A stretch of DNA of 61,845 nt, counting the filler, from Globobulimina sp. (lineage: Eukaryota): the NCBI GenBank assembly GCA_003354225.1. It is 16 parts of 16 records of this genome, joined end to end, with 100 filler letters (N's around TTAATTAATTAA, not from the genome) between each part and the next. Parts side by side here need not be neighbours in the genome. Positions count along the whole stretch, not along the records: positions 54,207 to 57,976 come from PIVH01002125.1; 15 more parts are not named here. One strand, given 5' to 3'. The translations under genes and the position numbers were made by a program. This document shows positions 52,816 to 60,320 of the stretch, in pieces. Numbering within the stretch: position 1 is the stretch's first letter; each line of letters starts with the position of its first letter. A model generated the notes under the pieces. That model saw only the letters and a list, made by a program, of their open reading frames with translations. It searched no databases and had not been told where the DNA came from.

Positions 52816-54106
52816 ATGTCCCAAAAAAAAAGAAGAGGCGGTTCCCACACATCAGCACAACTGTCTCGTGTTGTATTTCTTGGCACATCATCTGCTCAAC
52901 CAATCCCATTAAAACGCAATGTCTCATGTTTGGTGATTCAGGTATCGATCAAAAACAAAAACACAAAATCAACTTTTACTGATAAATTAATACAAATTAT
53001 ACAATAAACAGACCTCAAAAGGAAATTTATCCATTGTTGATTGTGGAGAAGGCACTCAACATCAATTTAAATTATCAACATTGAAAATTGGCAAATTACG
53101 GAATATTTTCATAACGCATTTGCACGGTGATCATTGTTACGGATTATTTGGTTTATTACATTCCATAAGACACGAAAATAGAGACTTTACTTTACACATT
53201 TATGGGCCAAAAGGAATTAAAGAAATGATCAATACAACATTAGCATTATCCGGCGGTTTATATCATTATTTATTAAAAATCCATGAAATCTCACTACCGA
53301 ACAACCGTAACAAAAACACTAAAAACACTCAGAACGATAATGATAATGATAATATTTGCAATATGGATGTAAGTTGCAATGAAGCTGAAACAGACGAGGA
53401 TTTATCAATGATTTCGAACAAACCTAACGAGAATGTATGGGAAAATAAAGCAGCGTTATTTGATACAAATGATATCATAGATTTGGGAGAAATTGAACCA
53501 GGAATTAAATGCTTTGCATGTGCATTGACGCATGGAATTGAAACATTTGGATATGTATTTATTGAGGACAATCAATTGGGGAAATTAGACGCAGCCACGG
53601 CTATGGCAATGGGTGCGAAAGGGAGACAGTTGGGATTGTTAAAAAGTGGAATTGATGTTACATTGGATAATGGAGTCACGATTTATAGCAAAGATGTGGT
53701 TGGAAAGCAAATAATTGGCAATAAAATTGCAGTGATGCAAGATTGTTCTGATTGTCGTAGTTGCTTTCGAATTGCACAAAATTGCGATTTATTTATCCAC
53801 GAATGTACTTATGATGAAGAATACAAATTGTATGCAATTCCGAGAGGACATTCAACGGCGAAAATGGCTGCGTTGAATGCATGCAAAGTGAATGCCAAAA
53901 TGTTGATGTTGACACATTTCTCATCAAGGTTTGTGGAGGGGGCTCCGGTCAGCGCAGAGACAAAGAACGATGATGATGACGATGAAGATGATGATGATTT
54001 AATGAATGTGCAGCGATTGCAAATAGAAGCAGAGGAGGAAATTGATCATAACGCATCAAAATGTATTGTTCGATGTGCTGCAGATTTTATGAGTATAAGA
54101 TTTGGT
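52816..54106 (+). CDS. ELAC1: Ribonuclease Z, short form (ELAC1-like), 2 exons; last codons truncated
   Basis: FLGTSSAQP..KRNVS, intron 52942-53011, DCGEGTQ, THLHGDH, exosite arm, HECTY, GHSTA and LTHFSSRF. Confidence 0.93.
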
Positions 54107-54284
54107 NNNNNNNNNNNNNNNNNNNNNNNNNNNNNNNNNNNNNNNNNNNNTTAATTAATTAANNNNNNNNNNNNNNNNNNNNNNNNNNNNNNNNNNNNNN
54201 NNNNNNTTGTAATATAACAAAATATCATCATATAAATACTAAAGAAATTGAAAACGAATATAAAATTTGTACAGTGACAGTGAA

Positions 54285-57200
54285 TTAAAAATAATTCTGT
54301 TTTGGTAGAGATTGAAACTTCGTAAATATATATTTAAATTCCGGCACTCTTTGTATCCACATTTTCAATCTATCCCTTTGATAGTTATTCGGATTTGCAT
54401 TTTGATACAAATCGCAATTATTTGTCCGGATTAAGCGTACATGCGTAATGGGGTTATTTTTATATGTAATCACAATGTCTGGCTTCGGCGCCGTAAATCT
54501 CACAATAAACGTACCAAATGGTCTCGTCGCGCCTTGCAACTCTCTCTCCGCATTCTCGCGTGTAATAAATCCGTGATTTCTCGCAATTTTATTATTCCAA
54601 AACGTACGCGTTTCATTCACAATATCACATAGACAATCAAACCATTTCCACACTTTAGCAAATATTCCCGCCGTAATCTCCAACCTATCCCTGCCATGGC
54701 CATGGCCGTCATCGTCAGACACAAACTTCCGAAACAAGGGCCCAATGGATTGCTTATCAAATATTAAATACTTATTCCTCGTTTTATCCGTCCAATAATT
54801 ATACAAATCCGCCATCAAATCCCCTTCCAACAAGCACACCGTGCCCAGTACGCCATTGCCTCCATTTTCGTTCCAGATCTGCCGCGCATACTCATTGTCG
54901 ATGATATAGTTCGAACTCACTGTCCTTCCATTCAAGTCACACTCAAATGTATTGATTCTCGCAGTCGCATCATACGATTGCGATACGTTTTGATTTGCGA
55001 ATGGCGGCTCATGGTTGATAGTCAGTATGCTATTCCGCGGAGAGGACACATTGATTTCCAATTTGGCCGCATTCACATTAATATCGCCCAACGTCTGTCG
55101 GTGCGCATCCATATTGGCAAAGCGTCGCTGATTATGCTTCTTGGAATTATTCAAATTGATATGTTCCTGTATCATTCGCTCATCCTCCAAGTTTCTGAAG
55201 CCTTCCACAATGGCATCCAAATCGGGCCAGGCTGCTTTTATTTTGTCGCCGAGATCTTCATTACAATCCGCCTCATACACCTCAGCACTCGCTTGTGCAT
55301 TATGAGGCTGGTTAGTCTGTGTATGGTTGATCGGTATGGATTCGTTGGTAAATCGCAACTTAGGCCGCGACAATTTCGTCGACAATGTCTGCAAATGCTG
55401 CGTCGATTTGTTGTTCGAGATTTTAAACTCATCCATACCGACTCCGGACGCTATCTCCTGCAAAGGAGCCACATCCGGCAATGAGTACGGCGCGAACTCA
55501 AAAGACTTATGCAAACGCTGTATTTTCTGCCGAATGAATGTTTTTTTGTAATCTAAGGAAGTTATCGCCATATCCACGCAGAAATTGCGTGAGGATAAGT
55601 TGCTGTTTGCATTGGCCGTTAAGAGGATGCTACAGTCACCGGAGGGCACGATGGTGGATCCCAACAATATGCGCTTGCTTTGTTTGTATGCGTCTGCGGG
55701 TAACACCTTATACGATTTCGCGTTGGTTTCCCGCAATGAATGCTTGCGCGTGGAATAATCGATGGAGTCATTGAATGGAAATGAGCCTCGCGATAAATTA
55801 TACGATGTGGTGGAGGTATTGGACAACCGCGCTTTGACCGATTTGAACGATTCATACGATTTGATTTTCCGGATAGACTTTCCTTGCAACTGCAGTATAC
55901 TCAACTTATTCTCGTCGATTTTCGGCGCGTAATCGCTAAATTGATCCATATCGATATCGATATCTAACTCCAGTTTGCTTGTATTCATATCGATATCATT
56001 GGCATCCTTTGTATGCTGTGCTTCATCCTCAGACTCTGAATGTGAGTCGGATTCATCTTCGAATTCGTAGATTAAGCCGTATTCCGCGTCGCCAGTCTCT
56101 TCGTATTGGAACTGTTGACGGGAGAGGTTATCGTCGAAAGTCTGCAGTACATATTCGGCGACTTGCTTCACTTTAAATGGTTTGTAGTCAAATAAAGTCA
56201 GCAACGCTTTGTGTTTGATAATATTATTGAACTTGTAGATGGTTTCAGTGCTCGCGATGTTGATCATTTGCAAGAATAAATGCACCAAATCGTCGTTGGT
56301 CAAGGGTTTGATCACTTGATGGCCGCGCTTGTACTGCATGGGCAGTTTGCTGTACTTACTGTAACTATGAAGAGGCGCTGGCTCCGACCCGCCGCGTACC
56401 CGGCCATTGCTGTGGGTATTGCCGTTATGGAAATAGTTCGTGATGTATTTGGCTGGCAGTTTTTCAGTGGGCATGGACTTATAAATGCGGTCCATATAAT
56501 ATTGTATCTGCGACACGAATTTAGTCACACACGTAATGACAATACGCGTGCCAATGTCGGGCGGGTTCTCCATCTCATCGTCAAACCGCTCGATCAAGGC
56601 ACAGATGAACGAGAACTTGTCCACTGCATCGAATTCAATCTCGTCAAAGTCTGAAAATAATAAACAAATCGGCCGCTTGGCCTCATCCATACAAACGTAT
56701 TTGTACAGCAATTCAACCGCTAATAGGTGCGACTTGTTCACATACAGCGGATTCCCCCGTATTTGGTCATAAAATTGCGCGATTTCGTGGAAATTATGCA
56801 CCTCCGCCACGTCTAACGTATCCAGCACCAATTCGGCTAAGTTTCGGATGCGTTTGGTGTCAAAATTATTCTTTATATGAAACACACCGCCTTTAAACTT
56901 GCGCCGCTTCCATAAATACCTTGTCACACAAAAAAAAAACTGAGCAAACGCACACAAAAAACACATACAACAACCTGGCCGCCATGGTGATAATAGCCGT
57001 CCTGCCGCACCCCGGCTGGTCCGAGCATATAATGGACAGCTTCTTATCGCGTATCATATTCATCACTTTATACACATCGTTCCAGCGCCCTATAAACGGG
57101 CGGATCGCATGCAAGTTATTATGCGGCGACAGCGTCCGCGTATAATCGCGCGGTTTGCCGTGGTCAAACAAGCCGTCGCGGAACAATATCAACTCATGAT

Positions 57201-57976
57201 CCACGTTCTCGGGCAGCAACTTGAAATCGTCGTAAATCGTGTCACGGTACTTCTGGTGCATATAATTGCTGTCATCGAACAGCTTAAACGCCGTCCGGAA
57301 CGCCCTCGCGATCGTAGTGTTGGACTCTATCAATGCAAAGTAAAATTGCGTGATGAAATCGGTAATGTGGTGCGCAAAATTATCGTCCACCTGTCGTATG
57401 GCCACCACATGCTTCACCTTCAACTGCGTCAAGAAGATGTTGGCCACTTCCAAGTGCGTCGGCGATTGGACTACGACGCACTGCGTCATGCGGTCAATGA
57501 TGTTCTTGTTACAGGGCTCGAACAGCTGTCCTAAGCCCACATCGTCGTCACTTTCCAGCAACAATTTGCCGTCGAAGGCATAGCCGATATAATGTAATAA
57601 CTTGCAGCCATTCAGCTGGCTCAAGGCGTTGCTCACTGTGCCTCCCAAGGTGAGGAAGCGCGCAGTTTGGTGGATACTGCATAATATGCCGTCGTATAGC
57701 AACGTTTGCAAGCCTTTGATGTCGAAGTGTTGCAGCATTGCGATATCGTTTTCGTGGCTATGTTGCAAGATATATGGCTGTGGGAGCCCGTGGCCGTGGC
57801 TTTGTGGCTCTGTTGGTTGGAAGTCTACAGATTTATTTTTCTGCATTTTCGGGTGTGATTTGTTTTGAATATAATTGTGTTTATATAGTAATAAGCTATC
57901 CGAGGCAGCGATGCTTTTACTGTCTCTATTCTGAAGAGTGTTTTTCTTCTTTTTGGAGGACTTTTTCTTGCGTTTC
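54285..57976 (-). CDS. Degenerate CHAT-like domain + STAND-like P-loop NTPase + disordered linker + SH2 domain; 5' truncated, 2 visible exons
   Basis: The frame is open from the contig edge, with intron 56974-56920. CHAT-like LLHYIGYA...LLLES...CVVVQSP...VKHVVAI...FITQFYFALI. NTPase FIGRWND...QPGCGRT...LLFSDFDE...IVIT. SH2 HGFITRENAERELQG...GTFIVRF. Confidence 0.75.
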
Positions 57977-58076
57977 NNNNNNNNNNNNNNNNNNNNNNNN
58001 NNNNNNNNNNNNNNNNNNNNTTAATTAATTAANNNNNNNNNNNNNNNNNNNNNNNNNNNNNNNNNNNNNNNNNNNN

Positions 58077-58345: not shown

Positions 58346-58927
58346 TTTTGATTTAATATAATTTAATACAACAAACTTATAAAAATACAAACAAACTACA
58401 AAAAAAAATCATAATAGATCACATTTGATCGCTGATTCATTTGTAAATATAAAATTATTCATATCCACTCCCAATCCATAAGAATCCTGCCTTTAGTTAC
58501 CATGCGATTAATGTCTGTAGGATCCCAATCTTTTGGTCTCCAAATACTTAAAAAAGTTAAATACCAATAATCATTCCTTTGAAATAAAAGGTTCATTTGG
58601 CTTGAATGGCTTGCCACAGCGTTCGTTATTACAGAGTAATATGTTTTGCGCTGACATTGAGAGCTCACAGTTTTTTGTGAAAATGAGTTGCTTAAATGAA
58701 CCTTTTCATTTCAAAAAGATTTACAAGTCCGAGAGGCTAATAATGCAATTAATGCATTATAGATGAATATTGTGTCGCGGACTTCTACATCATTTTTGAA
58801 ACGAAAAGGTTTAATTTAAGCTGGTTTTCATCTAATGGCGCACAGTGTGTAAATTAATATGATAGGTAATTGTGAATGGAATGAAATACTGACCACTACT
58901 ATGTGAAAACATTTTTCTAGTTCAACC

Positions 58928-60320
58928 ATGCCACTTTTGACCTCAAAACCCAGAAACCTATTGCCGTTGGACCTCCATTTTGAGAAACCCATTCCCAAAC
59001 CATGTTTCTCTCCTTTAGAGACACCGACCTATACCCACTCCAACGTAGACCCCTCCACTCACAAGCACCAATACTTCACTGCACTCACTCAGTCGTGTCA
59101 CTTCCATGGCACTGTTCTAAACACACAACACAGATCCGTCGTGTCTATGTCACTCTGTCCCAACCGTGGCATTCGCGGTAGAATTGAAGCCTTTGATCAA
59201 ACCTTACTCATTACACCCTCTGCCTATTATTTGGACTTAGAAAAAGATCAGAACGGCTTTCATTCCCTCAGCGATCAAGTCTTAATTTACAGAGAATTCG
59301 ATTTTAATCGCTCCGATGTCAATGCTATCAACGAAGGCGTCATCGATCCTAACAAAGAACCCTTAAAAACTAGTGAACGCAGACGGTTATTTACGTCTTC
59401 CAACCCTGCACAATTGGAAGAAATGATAGGTATGCATACATTATTTTGTAAAAAAATCAGTGATCGGACCTGTGCGAGCAAGAAATTATCAGAGCAATTA
59501 CGGCGACAAATGGTACCAAGAATTGCACGCAAAGACAGCAGATATGATCAATGATATGTCTGCGATTTATAAAGCCACAAATTGGGGATCGGCAGTGGGT
59601 GGAGTCAATAGTCTCAGTATTGTCTTCGCAGGGATACATGTCATATTTGACTTGACGGGCGATTATTCCTCGGTGAGACCCAATAGATTGCCCGGAAAAT
59701 CAGGGGGGACCTGTCCAGTGGGGACGGGTGAATTCAGCGATGATAATTACTGTGCCATTGATGGGCAGGAGTGGTTGGGTAAGATTAAAACGTGGGTCAG
59801 TAATTATTTACAATGGAATGGACAGATGGACAATGTGCAATTATTGTCTGATATGAAATTCGATTGGAATGGCTTTGCATTTATTATCTCAGTTTTATCA
59901 ATTGTGTGCACTCCATTGCACTGCAGTTATTGCAGAGGCACTCCTTTTAAATATTATATTCAAATCGGATCGAAATCGATGGAAGCGTTGAGAAAGGATA
60001 GAAATACAAATGAGATTAGACACATGCTCTGTGAGGCATTTGGTACGCGACCCAAACAGATCCAAATATCGAATAATTGCAGCATTACTGACAAAAGTGA
60101 ATTACAATTGTATATTGTGCACTTTGGTAAGCATTACGCGAATATCAATCAAATAATGGAATTATACAGAGACACTGAGGATTTCTTAAAATTTGAGTTC
60201 AAAAAATATTTTGGTTTGAAGGGAGAGTGTGTCATTCGGTTTAAAAGTATCGATGGTATGTATGACATTGCCATTGGTGAACAGAAGAACAATGATGGAA
60301 GCAAAGGGAGTCCACTATAA
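58928..60320 (+). pseudogene. ADAM/reprolysin (M12B)-like prodomain and partial catalytic domain, lacking HExxH and fused to an unrelated tail
   Basis: Prodomain SCHFHGTV...SVVSMSLC..GIRGRI, RRRL site, 31-bp intron 59430-59460, then INDMSAIYK and DNVQLLSD. No zinc motif occurs before the stop. Confidence 0.6.

What the first reader, a model, noticed from the sequence alone, without database searches (positions are those of the whole stretch)
54285..57976. Pseudo-CHAT + STAND-NTPase + SH2: a candidate phosphotyrosine-linked NLR-like signalling protein
Seen in sequence: after removing one 55-bp intron, a single frame carries three modules. The first is a CHAT-like fold in which the catalytic-His motif (typically LHFxGHG) reads LHYIGYA and the catalytic-Cys motif (typically VxLxAC) reads VVVQSP. 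The second is a STAND-style module (FIGR, a Walker A altered to PGCGRT, LLFSDFDE, IVIT). The third is a helical/EF-hand-like segment directly before a C-terminal SH2, as in STAT-like proteins. Established knowledge: CHAT-STAND proteins are immune/death switches that usually end in TPR or WD40 sensor repeats. Inference: here SH2 takes the sensor position and both enzymatic modules look dead, suggesting a pTyr-gated scaffold derived from an innate-immunity architecture. I know of no characterised protein with this arrangement.
Basis: partly seen in the sequence, partly recalled or inferred. Interest (0 to 1): 0.8.

Follow-up and report, generated by a model that had tools for sequence, protein, structure and literature searches.

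The report
Dead CHAT–STAND protein with STAT-type SH2
This protist gene encodes an immune-receptor-like protein (caspase-like domain, NLR-type ATPase, STAT-type phosphotyrosine-binding SH2) whose two enzyme centres have been lost, and it belongs to a so far undescribed family of such proteins in Rhizaria.

Summary
On the minus strand of one 3.77-kb contig (54207-57976) lies a two-exon gene. Its 55-nt GT..AG intron (56974-56920) is confirmed by two homologues that read AAR|YLW straight through and by contigs of two public runs that skip exactly these 55 nt.

An exhaustive HMMER search with exon 1 found 60 relatives. Of the 60 proteins scanned against Pfam, 47 carry CHAT. Most of these also carry NACHT, NB-ARC or AAA_16. 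Fifteen carry SH2, and 10 show all three.

- **Folds:** a model of a 71%-identical homologue matches a solved CHAT protease (Z 18.4) and NLR/Apaf-1/Cdc6 ATPases (Z 13-14). The window's own C-terminus matches the STAT linker plus SH2 (Z 13.8).
- **Lost motifs:** family consensus LHYSGHG / SACHS / GIGKT / TSR reads LHYIGYA / QSPTH / GCGRT / TCV here.
- **Retained:** the SH2 arginine.

Named relatives are all Rhizaria. My searches found no paper describing the architecture. The proposed role, a non-catalytic phosphotyrosine-binding regulator of active paralogues, is inference.

The parts
54285..57975 (-). Whole gene as far as the contig holds it: exon 1, intron, exon 2 and stop codon. The spliced product is 1211 aa. 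The 5' end is open at the contig end.
56975..57975 (-). Exon 1 (333 full codons = P0001, plus AG of a split Arg codon).
   Evidence: P0004 is 71% identical to P0001 over 77% of it.
57844..57846 (-). First in-frame ATG (MQKNK...). The 43 codons upstream are also stop-free, so the true start may lie off the contig.
   Evidence: Chance of a stop-free stretch is about 0.06. X1/X2 contigs run on at least 255 nt upstream.
57106..57753 (-). CHAT-like (caspase-fold) pseudo-protease module.
   Evidence: HMMER hits cover query 78-333. 47 of 60 scanned proteins carry Pfam CHAT. The P0004 model matches SAVED-CHAT 8tl0_C at Z 18.4, rmsd 3.2, 189 aligned. ESM look-alikes are CHAT clusters, best 0.91.
57577..57597 (-). 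LHYIGYA. It sits in the column of the family's LHYSGHG. The catalytic His is replaced by Tyr (57582..57580).
57460..57477 (-). VVVQSP. It sits in the column of the family's VFVSAC. The catalytic Cys is replaced by Pro (57462..57460).
57085..57096 (-). FIGR, the nearly invariant F-x-G-R lead-in to the NTPase module.
   Evidence: G583 and R584 are at least 90% conserved in A1.
56998..57021 (-). Degenerate Walker A, DQPGCGRT (family: GxPGIGK[TS]).
56920..56974 (-). 55-nt GT..AG intron in phase 2, splitting an Arg codon (AG|G).
   Evidence: Homologues read AARYLW. The joint skips 55 nt in X1 (2 contigs) and X2 (1 contig), while an X4 contig is unspliced.
56124..56919 (-). Rest of the STAND NTPase module (strands 2-5 and helical domain). 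Walker B-like LLFSDFDE = 56663..56640. Sensor-1-like IVITC = 56543..56529. The Pro of the GxP motif lies in YKPF = 56186..56175.
   Evidence: P0004 model residues 576-792 match 2qen at Z 14.0, a wheat NLR (9h2l) at 13.8, MalT (8bob) at 13.2 and Apaf-1 (1z6t) at 13.1.
54909..56123 (-). About 405-aa low-confidence, Ser/Asn/Asp-rich middle region with no repeat sensor. It holds 13 Tyr.
   Evidence: pLDDT is mostly under 50 for P0002 264-669. Composition. No Pfam family found.
54576..54899 (-). Helical STAT-type linker domain directly before the SH2.
   Evidence: P0002 model 674-877 matches STAT6 (9big 420-624) at Z 13.8 and Dictyostelium STAT (1uur 489-686) at Z 13.5. Foldseek matches STAT5a at E 3.8e-5. 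phmmer matches STAT3 at E 0.027.
54288..54575 (-). SH2 domain. GFITRENAE = 54572..54546. GTFIVRF, with the retained beta-B arginine, = 54515..54495. It ends in LPKQNYF followed by the stop codon.
   Evidence: Pfam PF00017 at 26.5 bits, cut-off 21..

Best explanation
**Shown.** The gene encodes a spliced, conserved member of a rhizarian family built as CHAT (caspase-like protease), then STAND NTPase (NACHT/NB-ARC type), then a disordered spacer, then a STAT-type linker plus SH2.

In most relatives the protease dyad (His, Cys) and the P-loop (GK[ST]) are intact. In the window's small clade (window, P0003, P0004, P0011, and by motif also P0005, P0007, P0008) several catalytic residues are replaced:
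- the dyad residues;
- the Walker A lysine;
- the first Walker B aspartate;
- the sensor-1 arginine.

The folds, the SH2 arginine and the reading frame are kept.

**Inferred.** The protein cannot cleave substrates or hydrolyse NTP. It acts as a non-catalytic adaptor or regulator. Its SH2 docks on a phosphotyrosine ligand. Its pseudo-CHAT and dead-STAND surfaces pair with catalytically active paralogues, or hold a fixed conformation. In this way it tunes, positively or as a decoy, a phosphorylation-triggered oligomerisation and protease switch. The logic is that of pseudo-caspase regulators and of sensor NLRs with degenerate P-loops (both recalled, from no call).

For the family as a whole, the SH2 stands where relatives carry TPR sensors. 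I therefore take it to be the input module.
For: **Gene structure**
- The intron is confirmed by homologues.
- It is also confirmed by contigs that skip 55 nt with GT..AG ends.

**Family**
- 60 hits at E <= 1e-3 in 1.84 billion representatives.
- Of the 60 proteins scanned, 47 carry CHAT (42 at or above the cut-off) and 15 carry SH2 (10 at or above the cut-off). Ten show CHAT, a STAND-type family and SH2 together.
- The family profile A1 hits these PDB sequences: SAVED-CHAT at 1.3e-15, Dictyostelium STAT at 3e-14, AfsR at 1.2e-13, Apaf-1 at 1.6e-10.

**Folds**
- CHAT at Z 18.4, and STAND/AAA+ at Z 13-14, both on the 71%-identical P0004.
- STAT linker plus SH2 at Z 13.8 on the window's own exon 2. 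This stands well above Cbl TKB at Z 6.8.

**Dead motifs at canonical places**
- 43 of 54 rows that fill both dyad columns have His and Cys. The window has Tyr and Pro.
- 47 of 53 rows have the Walker A Lys. The window has Arg.
- In the P0004 model these residues sit right after strands 418-422 and 458-463, and in the loop between strand 601-606 and helix 612-625.

**Not a pseudogene**
- The same substitutions recur in 4-6 relatives.
- 28 of 39 listed in-CDS differences from a 90-95% similar relative fall on third codon positions (binomial p 1e-6). Only 40 of 235 differences were shown. Indels are in frame.

**SH2 pocket**
- It keeps GF(I)T-R and FIV-R-F, aligned with STAT3 GFISK and FLLRF.

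**Tree**
- The dead clade is well supported (SH-aLRT 100 and 99) and sits on long stem branches of 1.33 and 1.24 (quick tree).
Against: - No binding, nucleotide or protease assay exists. Loss of activity is read from motifs only.
- The window's own exon-1 protein gets no Pfam family even at E <= 10. Its CHAT and NTPase folds were modelled on homologue P0004, not on the window's own sequence.
- Arg for Lys in Walker A, with PG-x-G-R-T otherwise kept, might still allow nucleotide binding.
- The SH2 beta-B motif reads RFTAP rather than the family's usual RFSES, so ligand preference may have shifted.
- I could not check whether the organism has tyrosine kinases, because no genome is held.
- No partner paralogue from the same genome was found in the window.
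- Runs X1 and X2 are only guessed to be RNA. The intron-less form could in principle be genomic in that relative.
- The tree is a quick, unrooted search.
Confidence: 0.55

Rival explanations
1. It is still a nucleotide-dependent switch. The Arg-substituted P-loop binds, but does not turn over, ATP or ADP. The protein oligomerises on its own, locked in one state. The pseudo-CHAT domain serves as a platform that recruits a separate active protease in trans, as CARD does in an apoptosome.
For: - The Walker A glycines and Thr are kept (PGCGRT). The acidic DE pair after Walker B and the GxP proline are also kept.
- The NTPase fold is predicted with pLDDT of about 90 in P0004.
- The same Arg recurs in P0003, P0004 and P0007, which suggests it is selected rather than random decay.
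Against: - P0004 has a much more degraded loop (EEETGRRS) and P0011 has none, so the clade does not conserve a P-loop.
- The first Walker B Asp and the sensor-1 Arg are also lost.
Confidence: 0.2
2. The SH2 does not read phosphotyrosine. As in Spt6 (recalled), it binds phosphoserine, phosphothreonine or an unphosphorylated partner, or it serves only as a dimerisation module. The protein would then be a scaffold unrelated to tyrosine-kinase signalling.
For: [quoted passage not shown]
- The window's beta-B motif is RFTAP, not RFSES.
- The protein ends with the SH2 and has no STAT-like tail tyrosine. Its last Tyr sits in the structural P-K-x-x-h-F motif, where relatives have Ala, Ile or Val.
Against: - The two basic pocket residues, alpha-A Arg/Lys and beta-B Arg, are kept throughout the family.
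- The closest solved structures are phosphotyrosine-binding STAT SH2 domains.
Confidence: 0.15
3. It is a decaying, non-functional paralogue (a pseudogene in the making) of an active CHAT-STAND-SH2 gene.
For: - Four catalytic motifs are lost together.
- The clade sits on long branches.
- No Pfam model recognises the first two modules of the window's protein.
Against: - The 1211-codon spliced frame is intact.
- The same substitutions are shared by relatives at 38-71% identity.
- Differences fall mostly on third codon positions, 28 of 39 listed.
- Indels against the relative are in frame, and the contigs carry a precise intron-less form.
- Fold predictions for the clade are confident.
Confidence: 0.05
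4. It is a STAT-like transcription regulator. The linker plus SH2 works as in STATs, and the N-terminal modules replace the coiled-coil and DNA-binding domains. Alternatively the dead STAND acts as a nucleic-acid receptor, as was proposed for inactive bacterial STAND domains (PMC8195603; passages seen).
For: - The STAT linker plus SH2 is the best structural and sequence match for the C-terminus.
- STAND domains descend from ORC/Cdc6-like DNA binders, and those are among the fold hits.
Against: - No STAT coiled-coil or DNA-binding domain was found.
- There is no tail tyrosine for reciprocal dimerisation.
- No nucleic-acid-binding domain was detected.
Confidence: 0.05

Closest known systems
CHAT-STAND-TPR proteins (Pfam CHAT PF12770 + NACHT/NB-ARC + TPR), e.g. 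P0037, P0048, P0039 (with an added TIR), and P0071 from an Anaerolineae MAG
   Same: - The N-terminal CHAT module, the F-x-GR lead-in and the STAND NTPase are the same and align end to end.
- The domain order is the same.
   Different: - They end in TPR repeats and keep His/Cys and GK[ST].
- The window's protein ends in a disordered spacer followed by a STAT-type linker plus SH2, and it has lost the catalytic residues.
Rhizarian CHAT-STAND-SH2 relatives found here: P0009, P0010, P0012 (Norrisiella sphaerica), P0014, P0016 (Nonionella stella), P0044, P0049, P0051, P0053, P0059. Also P0040 = Reticulomyxa filosa ETO28075.1 / X6NP69, annotated 'CHAT domain-containing protein'
   Same: - The three-module architecture is the same.
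- The STAT-type helical prelude and SH2 are the same.
   Different: - These keep LHYSGHG, SACHS and GIGK[ST].
- The window's clade has Tyr/Pro and G-R-T and sits on a long branch.
- None of them is characterised. Where a source gives a name at all (for further relatives), it is a hypothetical or automatic one.
SAVED-CHAT protease of type III CRISPR systems (PDB 8tl0)
   Same: - Best structural match of the N-terminal module: Z 18.4, rmsd 3.2, 189 residues.
- Best sequence-profile match: E 1.3e-15.
   Different: - It is regulated by a SAVED cyclic-oligonucleotide sensor, not by a STAND NTPase or an SH2.
- It is an active protease. The window's module lacks the dyad.
Apaf-1 / CED-4 apoptosome proteins and plant or animal NLRs
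   Same: - The STAND nucleotide-binding domain fold matches at Z 12-14.
- The family profile gives E 1.6e-10 to Apaf-1 and 1e-9 to NLRP3 and plant NLRs.
- The logic of coupling an NTPase switch to a caspase-type protease is the same.
   Different: - They recruit caspases in trans through CARD and sense through WD40 or LRR repeats.
- Here the caspase-like domain is fused in cis and is dead. The P-loop is degenerate, and the C-terminal module is an SH2.
STAT transcription factors (metazoan STAT1-6, Dictyostelium STATa)
   Same: - The linker domain plus SH2 unit matches: Z 13.8 and 13.5, profile E 3e-14.
- Shared motifs are GF(I/L)S(K/R), GTF(L/I)(L/V)RF and a closing P-K-x-x-h-F. The comparison with STAT's PKEEAF is recalled.
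   Different: - No coiled-coil, no DNA-binding domain and no C-terminal tail tyrosine are present.
- The unit is attached to CHAT-STAND instead.
Pseudo-caspase regulators such as c-FLIP, and sensor NLRs with degenerate P-loops (recalled, from no call)
   Same: The idea is the same: a catalytically dead paralogue keeps the fold and regulates active relatives.
   Different: The analogy is only functional. No homology beyond the caspase-like and STAND folds was shown, and no interaction was tested here.

Membership tests
CHAT domain (Pfam PF12770, caspase-like clan) | Sequence match to the Pfam model above its gathering score | tested here: not met
   P0001 gets 0 families at E <= 10. The close relatives P0004-P0008 and P0011 also get none.
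CHAT domain (Pfam PF12770, caspase-like clan) | Significant homology to proteins that do pass the Pfam model | tested here: met
   P0001 hits P0009 (8.3e-12), P0010 (2.7e-11), P0012, P0013 and others across query residues ~80-333. 42 of the 60 scanned proteins reach the CHAT cut-off of 24 bits.
CHAT domain (Pfam PF12770, caspase-like clan) | Caspase-like alpha/beta fold | tested here: met
   The model of 71%-identical P0004 matches 8tl0_C at Z 18.4, rmsd 3.2, 189 aligned, and by Foldseek at E 1.6e-5. The window's own exon 1 was not folded.
CHAT domain (Pfam PF12770, caspase-like clan) | Catalytic His-Cys dyad | tested here: not met
   Tyr stands in the His column and Pro in the Cys column. 43 of the 54 rows that fill both columns have His and Cys.
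STAND NTPase (NACHT PF05729 / NB-ARC PF00931 type) | P-loop NTPase fold of the AAA+/STAND kind | tested here: met
   P0004 model residues 576-792 match 2qen at Z 14.0, 9h2l (wheat NLR) at 13.8, 8bob (MalT) at 13.2, 6j6i (ZAR1) at 13.2 and 1z6t (Apaf-1) at 13.1. The window's exon-2 part alone gives only Z 6.4-6.5 to ORC2 and MalT.
STAND NTPase (NACHT PF05729 / NB-ARC PF00931 type) | Walker A GxxxxGK[ST] | tested here: not met
   The window reads DQPGCGRT: the first Gly is replaced by Asp and the Lys by Arg. 47 of 53 rows have Lys.
STAND NTPase (NACHT PF05729 / NB-ARC PF00931 type) | Walker B hhhhD followed by an acidic pair | tested here: inconclusive
   The window reads ICLLFSDFDE. Ser stands in the Asp column, an Asp follows one place later, and the DE pair is kept. 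The alignment could shift by one residue.
STAND NTPase (NACHT PF05729 / NB-ARC PF00931 type) | Sensor-1 arginine (hhhTSR) | tested here: not met
   The window reads IVITCV, with Val in the Arg column.
STAND NTPase (NACHT PF05729 / NB-ARC PF00931 type) | Pfam match of the window's own protein | tested here: not met
   No NTPase family is found for P0001 or P0002 at E <= 10. Relatives match NACHT, NB-ARC, AAA_16 or nSTAND.
SH2 domain (Pfam PF00017) | Pfam match above the gathering score | tested here: met
   26.5 bits against a cut-off of 21, E 7e-6, P0002 782-839. P0003 scores 24 bits.
SH2 domain (Pfam PF00017) | Beta-B arginine of the FLVR-type motif, and a basic alpha-A residue | tested here: met
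   GTFIVRF and GFITR align with STAT3 GTFLLRF and GFISK and are conserved in the family. Their role as phosphotyrosine ligands is established knowledge and was not assayed here.
SH2 domain (Pfam PF00017) | Phosphotyrosine-peptide binding | not testable with these tools
   Needs a binding assay.
STAT family | Linker domain fused to the SH2 | tested here: met
   P0002 674-877 matches STAT6 420-624 at Z 13.8 and Dictyostelium STAT 489-686 at Z 13.5. Cbl TKB scores only 6.8.
STAT family | Coiled-coil and DNA-binding domains upstream, and a tail tyrosine downstream | tested here: not met
   No STAT Pfam families are found. The upstream 400 aa are predicted disordered. The protein ends at the SH2's closing motif.
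NLR in the strict sense (NBD plus C-terminal LRR, WD40 or TPR sensor) | C-terminal repeat sensor | tested here: not met
   No repeat family is found in P0002. The model shows a disordered spacer and then the linker plus SH2.

The most novel reading that the evidence does not exclude
Rhizaria possess a so far undescribed class of NLR-like death or immunity switches. In these, a STAT-type SH2 replaces the repeat sensor, so that tyrosine phosphorylation, rather than direct ligand binding, triggers STAND oligomerisation and activation of a cis-fused caspase-like CHAT protease. The window's gene would be the system's built-in pseudoenzyme regulator, a FLIP-like decoy or a helper. If so, phosphotyrosine signalling and apoptosome-type machinery were wired together independently of animals.
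Probability: 0.3. Interest if true: 0.8.

Novelty: new variant of a known kind. Interest (0 to 1): 0.62.

Why it matters
- **NLR evolution:** STAND/NLR switches with caspase-like effectors are a recurring solution for immunity and cell death from bacteria to animals. Their input modules are almost always repeats (LRR, WD40, TPR). A family that uses a STAT-type SH2 in that place would link two signalling systems usually treated apart: phosphotyrosine reading and NLR/apoptosome-type assembly. It would do so in a eukaryotic supergroup where neither has been studied.
- **SH2 evolution:** the linker plus SH2 unit is held to be the ancestral SH2 form (recalled). These proteins give it a new, non-transcriptional context.
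- **Pseudoenzymes:** the window's gene adds a natural example in which protease and NTPase centres were lost together while fold, frame and SH2 pocket were kept. That is the signature of a regulatory pseudoenzyme, and it is testable with simple binding and co-expression assays.

Tried and rejected
- **Alternative 49-nt intron (GTATGT donor at 56968).** It also restores the frame. I rejected it because the contigs skip 55 nt and the homologues lack the extra Leu-Leu.
- **Conserved tail tyrosine.** I asked whether the C-terminal NYF is a STAT- or Src-like phosphorylation tail. I rejected this because the Tyr sits in the SH2's closing P-K-x-x-h-F motif, where relatives have Ala, Ile or Val.
- **Whole-genome search for paralogues and tyrosine kinases.** No genome is held for this window.
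- **Paralogues inside the window.** tblastn with P0001-P0003 found only the gene itself.
- **RNA evidence.** No RNA holder is listed. X1-X3 are only guessed to be RNA. X3 showed no joint at the intron.
- **Profile search of the 5.8-billion-protein set with A2.** Only the 8000 candidates sharing most words were scored. They yielded P0003 and, from their names and Pfam domains, mostly bacterial STAND regulators, with one plant NLR. No further SH2 forms appeared, so this says nothing about the family's true size.
- **First search with P0002 residues 1-300.** It found only P0003.
- **Opposite-strand ORFs** (54768-55484, 56944-57534, 56280-56654). No Pfam family at E <= 1. I treat them as shadows of the gene.
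- **First literature search.** Useless, because 'stand' is a common word.
- **'Reticulomyxa' + SH2 and Rhizaria + 'SH2 domain' + STAT.** Neither gave a listed title or abstract start that points to this architecture. Of these I looked into only PMC4758236 (passages), which does not treat it.
- **NLR + 'SH2 domain' + foraminifera.** It returned only unrelated mammalian papers.
- **Complex prediction.** Not used. No same-genome partner was available, and a stand-in from another species would not have changed my odds.

Full report
**1. What is in the sequence**

The window is not one stretch of genome. It is a chain of about 3.77-kb contigs joined by N44-TTAATTAATTAA-N44 linkers. The finding fills one such contig, 54207..57976, so it has no genomic neighbours to read.

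On the minus strand, two long frames (56893..58020 and 54285..57053) differ by one base of phase. They are joined by removing 56974..56920, a 55-nt GT..AG intron that splits an Arg codon.

I kept the two exon products apart for all tools. P0001 is exon 1 (333 aa) and P0002 is exon 2 (877 aa). I joined them only inside scripts (1211 codons, no stop).

**2. The splice is real**

- Two database homologues read straight across the junction. P0003 (1263 aa) is 48% identical to the end of exon 1 and 33% to exon 2. P0004 (861 aa) is 71% identical to exon 1. Both read ...ITMAARYLWER....
- I laid contigs of four public runs on the contig. X1 (2 contigs) and X2 (1 contig), from a 90-95% similar organism, carry a joint that skips exactly 55 nt. 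Its ends are CT..AC on the + strand, which is GT..AG on the gene strand.
- A 99%-identical contig of X4 runs through the intron unspliced. X3 showed no joint.
- X1-X3 are only guessed to be RNA, and no holder is on record as RNA. The joint therefore shows that an intron-less form exists, not how strongly the gene is expressed.
- A 49-nt alternative intron, with a GTATGT donor, is excluded by both lines of evidence.
- Contigs of X1 and X2 run on at least 255 nt beyond the contig end at 57975.
- The 43 codons before the first ATG (57846) are stop-free, with a chance of about 0.06.

**3. Selection**

One search displayed 40 of 235 differences between the window and the X1/X2 relative. Of these, 39 lie in the coding sequence and 28 of the 39 fall on third codon positions (binomial p 1e-6). 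The listed indels are multiples of three or add up to three. The gene is under purifying selection and is not decaying.

**4. What family it belongs to**

Pfam recognises only the SH2 domain: PF00017 at 26.5 bits against a cut-off of 21, P0002 782-839. Nothing is found in exon 1 even at E <= 10.

An exhaustive phmmer search of 1.84 billion representatives with P0001 gave 60 hits at E <= 1e-3, of which 7 are at <= 1e-10. Most cover query residues about 80-333.

I scanned 60 proteins against Pfam: P0004 plus 59 of the hits. P0003 was scanned. The results:

| Pfam finding | Proteins of 60 |
|---|---|
| CHAT at E <= 0.01 | 47 (42 at or above the 24-bit cut-off) |
| SH2 at E <= 0.01 | 15 (10 at or above the cut-off) |
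| CHAT + a STAND-type family + SH2 together | 10 |
| TPR at the C-terminus | 5 |
| No CHAT hit | 13 |

- Most CHAT-positive proteins also carry NACHT, NB-ARC, AAA_16, NPHP3_N or nSTAND families.
- The 13 without a CHAT hit include all the window's closest relatives (P0004-P0008, P0011).
- A profile of the family alignment A1 matches PDB sequences at several levels. SAVED-CHAT scores 1.3e-15, Dictyostelium STAT 3e-14, the STAND regulator AfsR 1.2e-13, STAT5/6/3/1 about 1e-12 to 1e-10, and Apaf-1 1.6e-10. Plant NLRs and NLRP3 score about 1e-9.
- ESM-Atlas look-alikes of P0001 44-333 are CHAT clusters, best 0.91. Those of P0002 1-270 include NACHT/NPHP3_N clusters at 0.92. These are leads only.

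Named members are all Rhizaria:
- Reticulomyxa filosa: ETO14314.1, and ETO28075.1 / X6NP69 ('CHAT domain-containing protein');
- Nonionella stella and Bolivina argentea (Foraminifera);
- Norrisiella sphaerica and Partenskyella glossopodia (chlorarachniophytes).

One TPR-type relative sits in a cluster with an Anaerolineae MAG protein.

**5. Folds**

AlphaFold2 on alignment A1, with P0004 first and 53 rows, gave pLDDT of about 90 over residues 370-780.
- Foldseek finds the SAVED-CHAT filament 8tl0 at E 1.6e-5. It also finds ORC/Cdc6, CED-4, Apaf-1 and the Sr35 resistosome.
- VIA-align gives 8tl0_C at Z 18.4 (rmsd 3.2, 189 residues, model 271-559).
- For model 576-792 it gives 2qen at Z 14.0, a wheat NLR at 13.8, MalT at 13.2, ZAR1 at 13.2 and Apaf-1 at 13.1.

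The window's own exon 2, folded on alignment A2 (35 rows), has four parts:
- a confident partial NTPase, residues 1-150;
- a small helical domain, residues 200-265;
- a long low-confidence spacer, residues 264-669;
- a confident C-terminal unit, residues 670-877.

That C-terminal unit matches STAT6 (9big 420-624) at Z 13.8, rmsd 3.2, 177 residues. It matches Dictyostelium STAT (1uur) at Z 13.5, and STAT5a/3/1 at Z 11-13.5. Cbl TKB follows at 6.8.

The window's own exon 1 was not folded. Its fold is inferred from the 71%-identical P0004.

**6. The catalytic motifs**

I built a MAFFT alignment of 58 rows: the spliced window protein plus 57 relatives. Three of these, P0064-P0066, are copies at 90% identity or more of other rows. 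P0016, P0018, P0032, P0036, P0047, P0051 and P0061 were left out, because the local phmmer did not return them or their segment was too short.

The window's motifs fall in the family's catalytic columns:

| Site | Family consensus | Window | Count in family |
|---|---|---|---|
| Catalytic His | LHYSGHG | LHYIGYA | 43 of 54 rows that fill both dyad columns have His and Cys |
| Catalytic Cys | VFVSACHSE | VVVQSPTH | as above |
| Walker A | GxPGIGK[TS] | DQPGCGRT | 47 of 53 rows have Lys |
| Walker B | hhhhLD..ED | ICLLFSDFDE | Ser in the Asp column |
| Sensor 1 | hhhTSR | IVITCV | Arg lost |

- The same Tyr/Pro pair occurs in P0004, P0005 and P0007 (R. filosa). P0008 and P0011 share the Pro. P0006 keeps His but has Pro.
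- The Walker A Arg recurs in P0003, P0004 and P0007. P0004's loop is further degraded (EEETGRRS).
- In the P0004 model these residues sit at the canonical places: the ends of strands 418-422 and 458-463, the loop between strand 601-606 and helix 612-625, and strands 702-706 and 743-749.
- A quick, unrooted IQ-TREE of 45 rows dropped 10 short rows and 3 near-copies. It groups the window with P0004 and P0003 (SH-aLRT 100), then with P0011 (99), on stem branches of 1.33 and 1.24. SH2-bearing and TPR-bearing rows separate with one change (support 95).

**7. The SH2**

The family's C-terminus has three conserved elements:
- a helical prelude (F..W..WF..L);
- GF(I/L)(S/T)(R/K)..A...L;
- GTF(I/L)(I/V)RF(S).

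The window has GFITRENAE and GTFIVRF. These align with STAT3's GFISKERE and GTFLLRF, so the two basic pocket residues are kept. The following residues, RFTAP, differ from the family's usual RFSES.

The protein ends in LPKQNYF. This is the family's closing P-(K/R)-x-x-h-F motif, not a phosphorylation tail.

**8. How it most likely works**

*Shown.* The architecture, the folds, the loss of catalytic residues, conservation, and a spliced form.

*Inferred.* The protein is a non-catalytic adaptor or regulator. Its SH2 reads a phosphotyrosine mark. Its dead CHAT and STAND modules pair with, or compete with, active CHAT-STAND-SH2 paralogues.

In the family at large the SH2 stands where relatives carry TPR sensors. 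I therefore read it as the input that gates STAND assembly and proximity activation of the protease.

Rivals:
- a locked nucleotide-binding switch;
- an SH2 that reads something other than phosphotyrosine;
- a decaying gene (unlikely, see section 3);
- a STAT-like or nucleic-acid-binding role. Passages of PMC8195603, seen, propose that inactive bacterial STAND domains act as nucleic-acid receptors.

**9. Novelty**

- 'CHAT domain' + NACHT + SH2 returned 0 papers.
- 'STAND NTPase' + SH2 returned 1 paper (PMC8195603). In the passages I saw, it names SH2 only among the C-terminal domains of an unrelated TRADD-N clade.
- 'Reticulomyxa' + SH2 and Rhizaria + 'SH2 domain' + STAT gave no listed title or abstract start that points to this architecture. 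Of these I looked into only PMC4758236 (passages), which does not treat it.
- The library lacks most subscription journals. The R. filosa genome paper (Curr Biol 2014) was not held and not read. Supplements were closed. The absence claim is limited to these searches.
- Database records of the relatives are unnamed or carry only hypothetical or automatic names.

I therefore class the finding as a new variant of a known kind: CHAT-STAND switches with a new C-terminal module. This gene is a degenerate member of that variant.

Noticed in passing
window 1-61845, with linkers e.g. at 54107-54206 and 57977-58076: The window is a concatenation of 16 pieces of about 3.77 kb, joined by N44-TTAATTAATTAA-N44 linkers. 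Adjacent genes are therefore not genomic neighbours.
   Followed up: yes
window 52991-54106 (+), on the preceding contig: An ORF with metallo-beta-lactamase / tRNase Z-like domains: Lactamase_B_2 at 37.8 bits, Lactamase_B at 27.9, Lactamase_B_4 at 20.4. It has an acidic low-complexity tail and runs into the contig end.
   Followed up: partly
window 58907-59554 (+) and 59430-60320 (+), on the following contig: Two long ORFs with no Pfam family at E <= 0.01.
   Followed up: partly
P0064 (1126 aa, cluster of P0012, Norrisiella sphaerica): It carries a second, tandem copy of the helical prelude plus SH2 unit at its C-terminus.
   Followed up: no
P0032 / P0074 (Norrisiella sphaerica and MMETSP transcripts): A response-regulator receiver domain (58.4 bits) is fused in front of CHAT + NB-ARC. 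This gives a two-component-type input on the same chassis.
   Followed up: no
P0039 (1060 aa) and P0035 (695 aa): P0039 is TIR + CHAT + NACHT + TPR. P0035 is EAD7/EAD1 + CHAT + NACHT, and its cluster includes an Anaerolineae MAG protein. These are bacterial-style conflict-system architectures among the relatives.
   Followed up: no
P0004 residues 39-268 and 294-367: The closest homologue has about 300 aa of Lys-rich low-complexity sequence inserted before the core of the CHAT fold. The window's frame starts with a similar Lys-rich stretch at the contig end.
   Followed up: partly
window 54909-56123 (-): Against the X1/X2 relative this spacer collects in-frame indels: +18, +3, +3, +6, and -12 as 1+11. 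This fits a fast-evolving disordered linker.
   Followed up: partly
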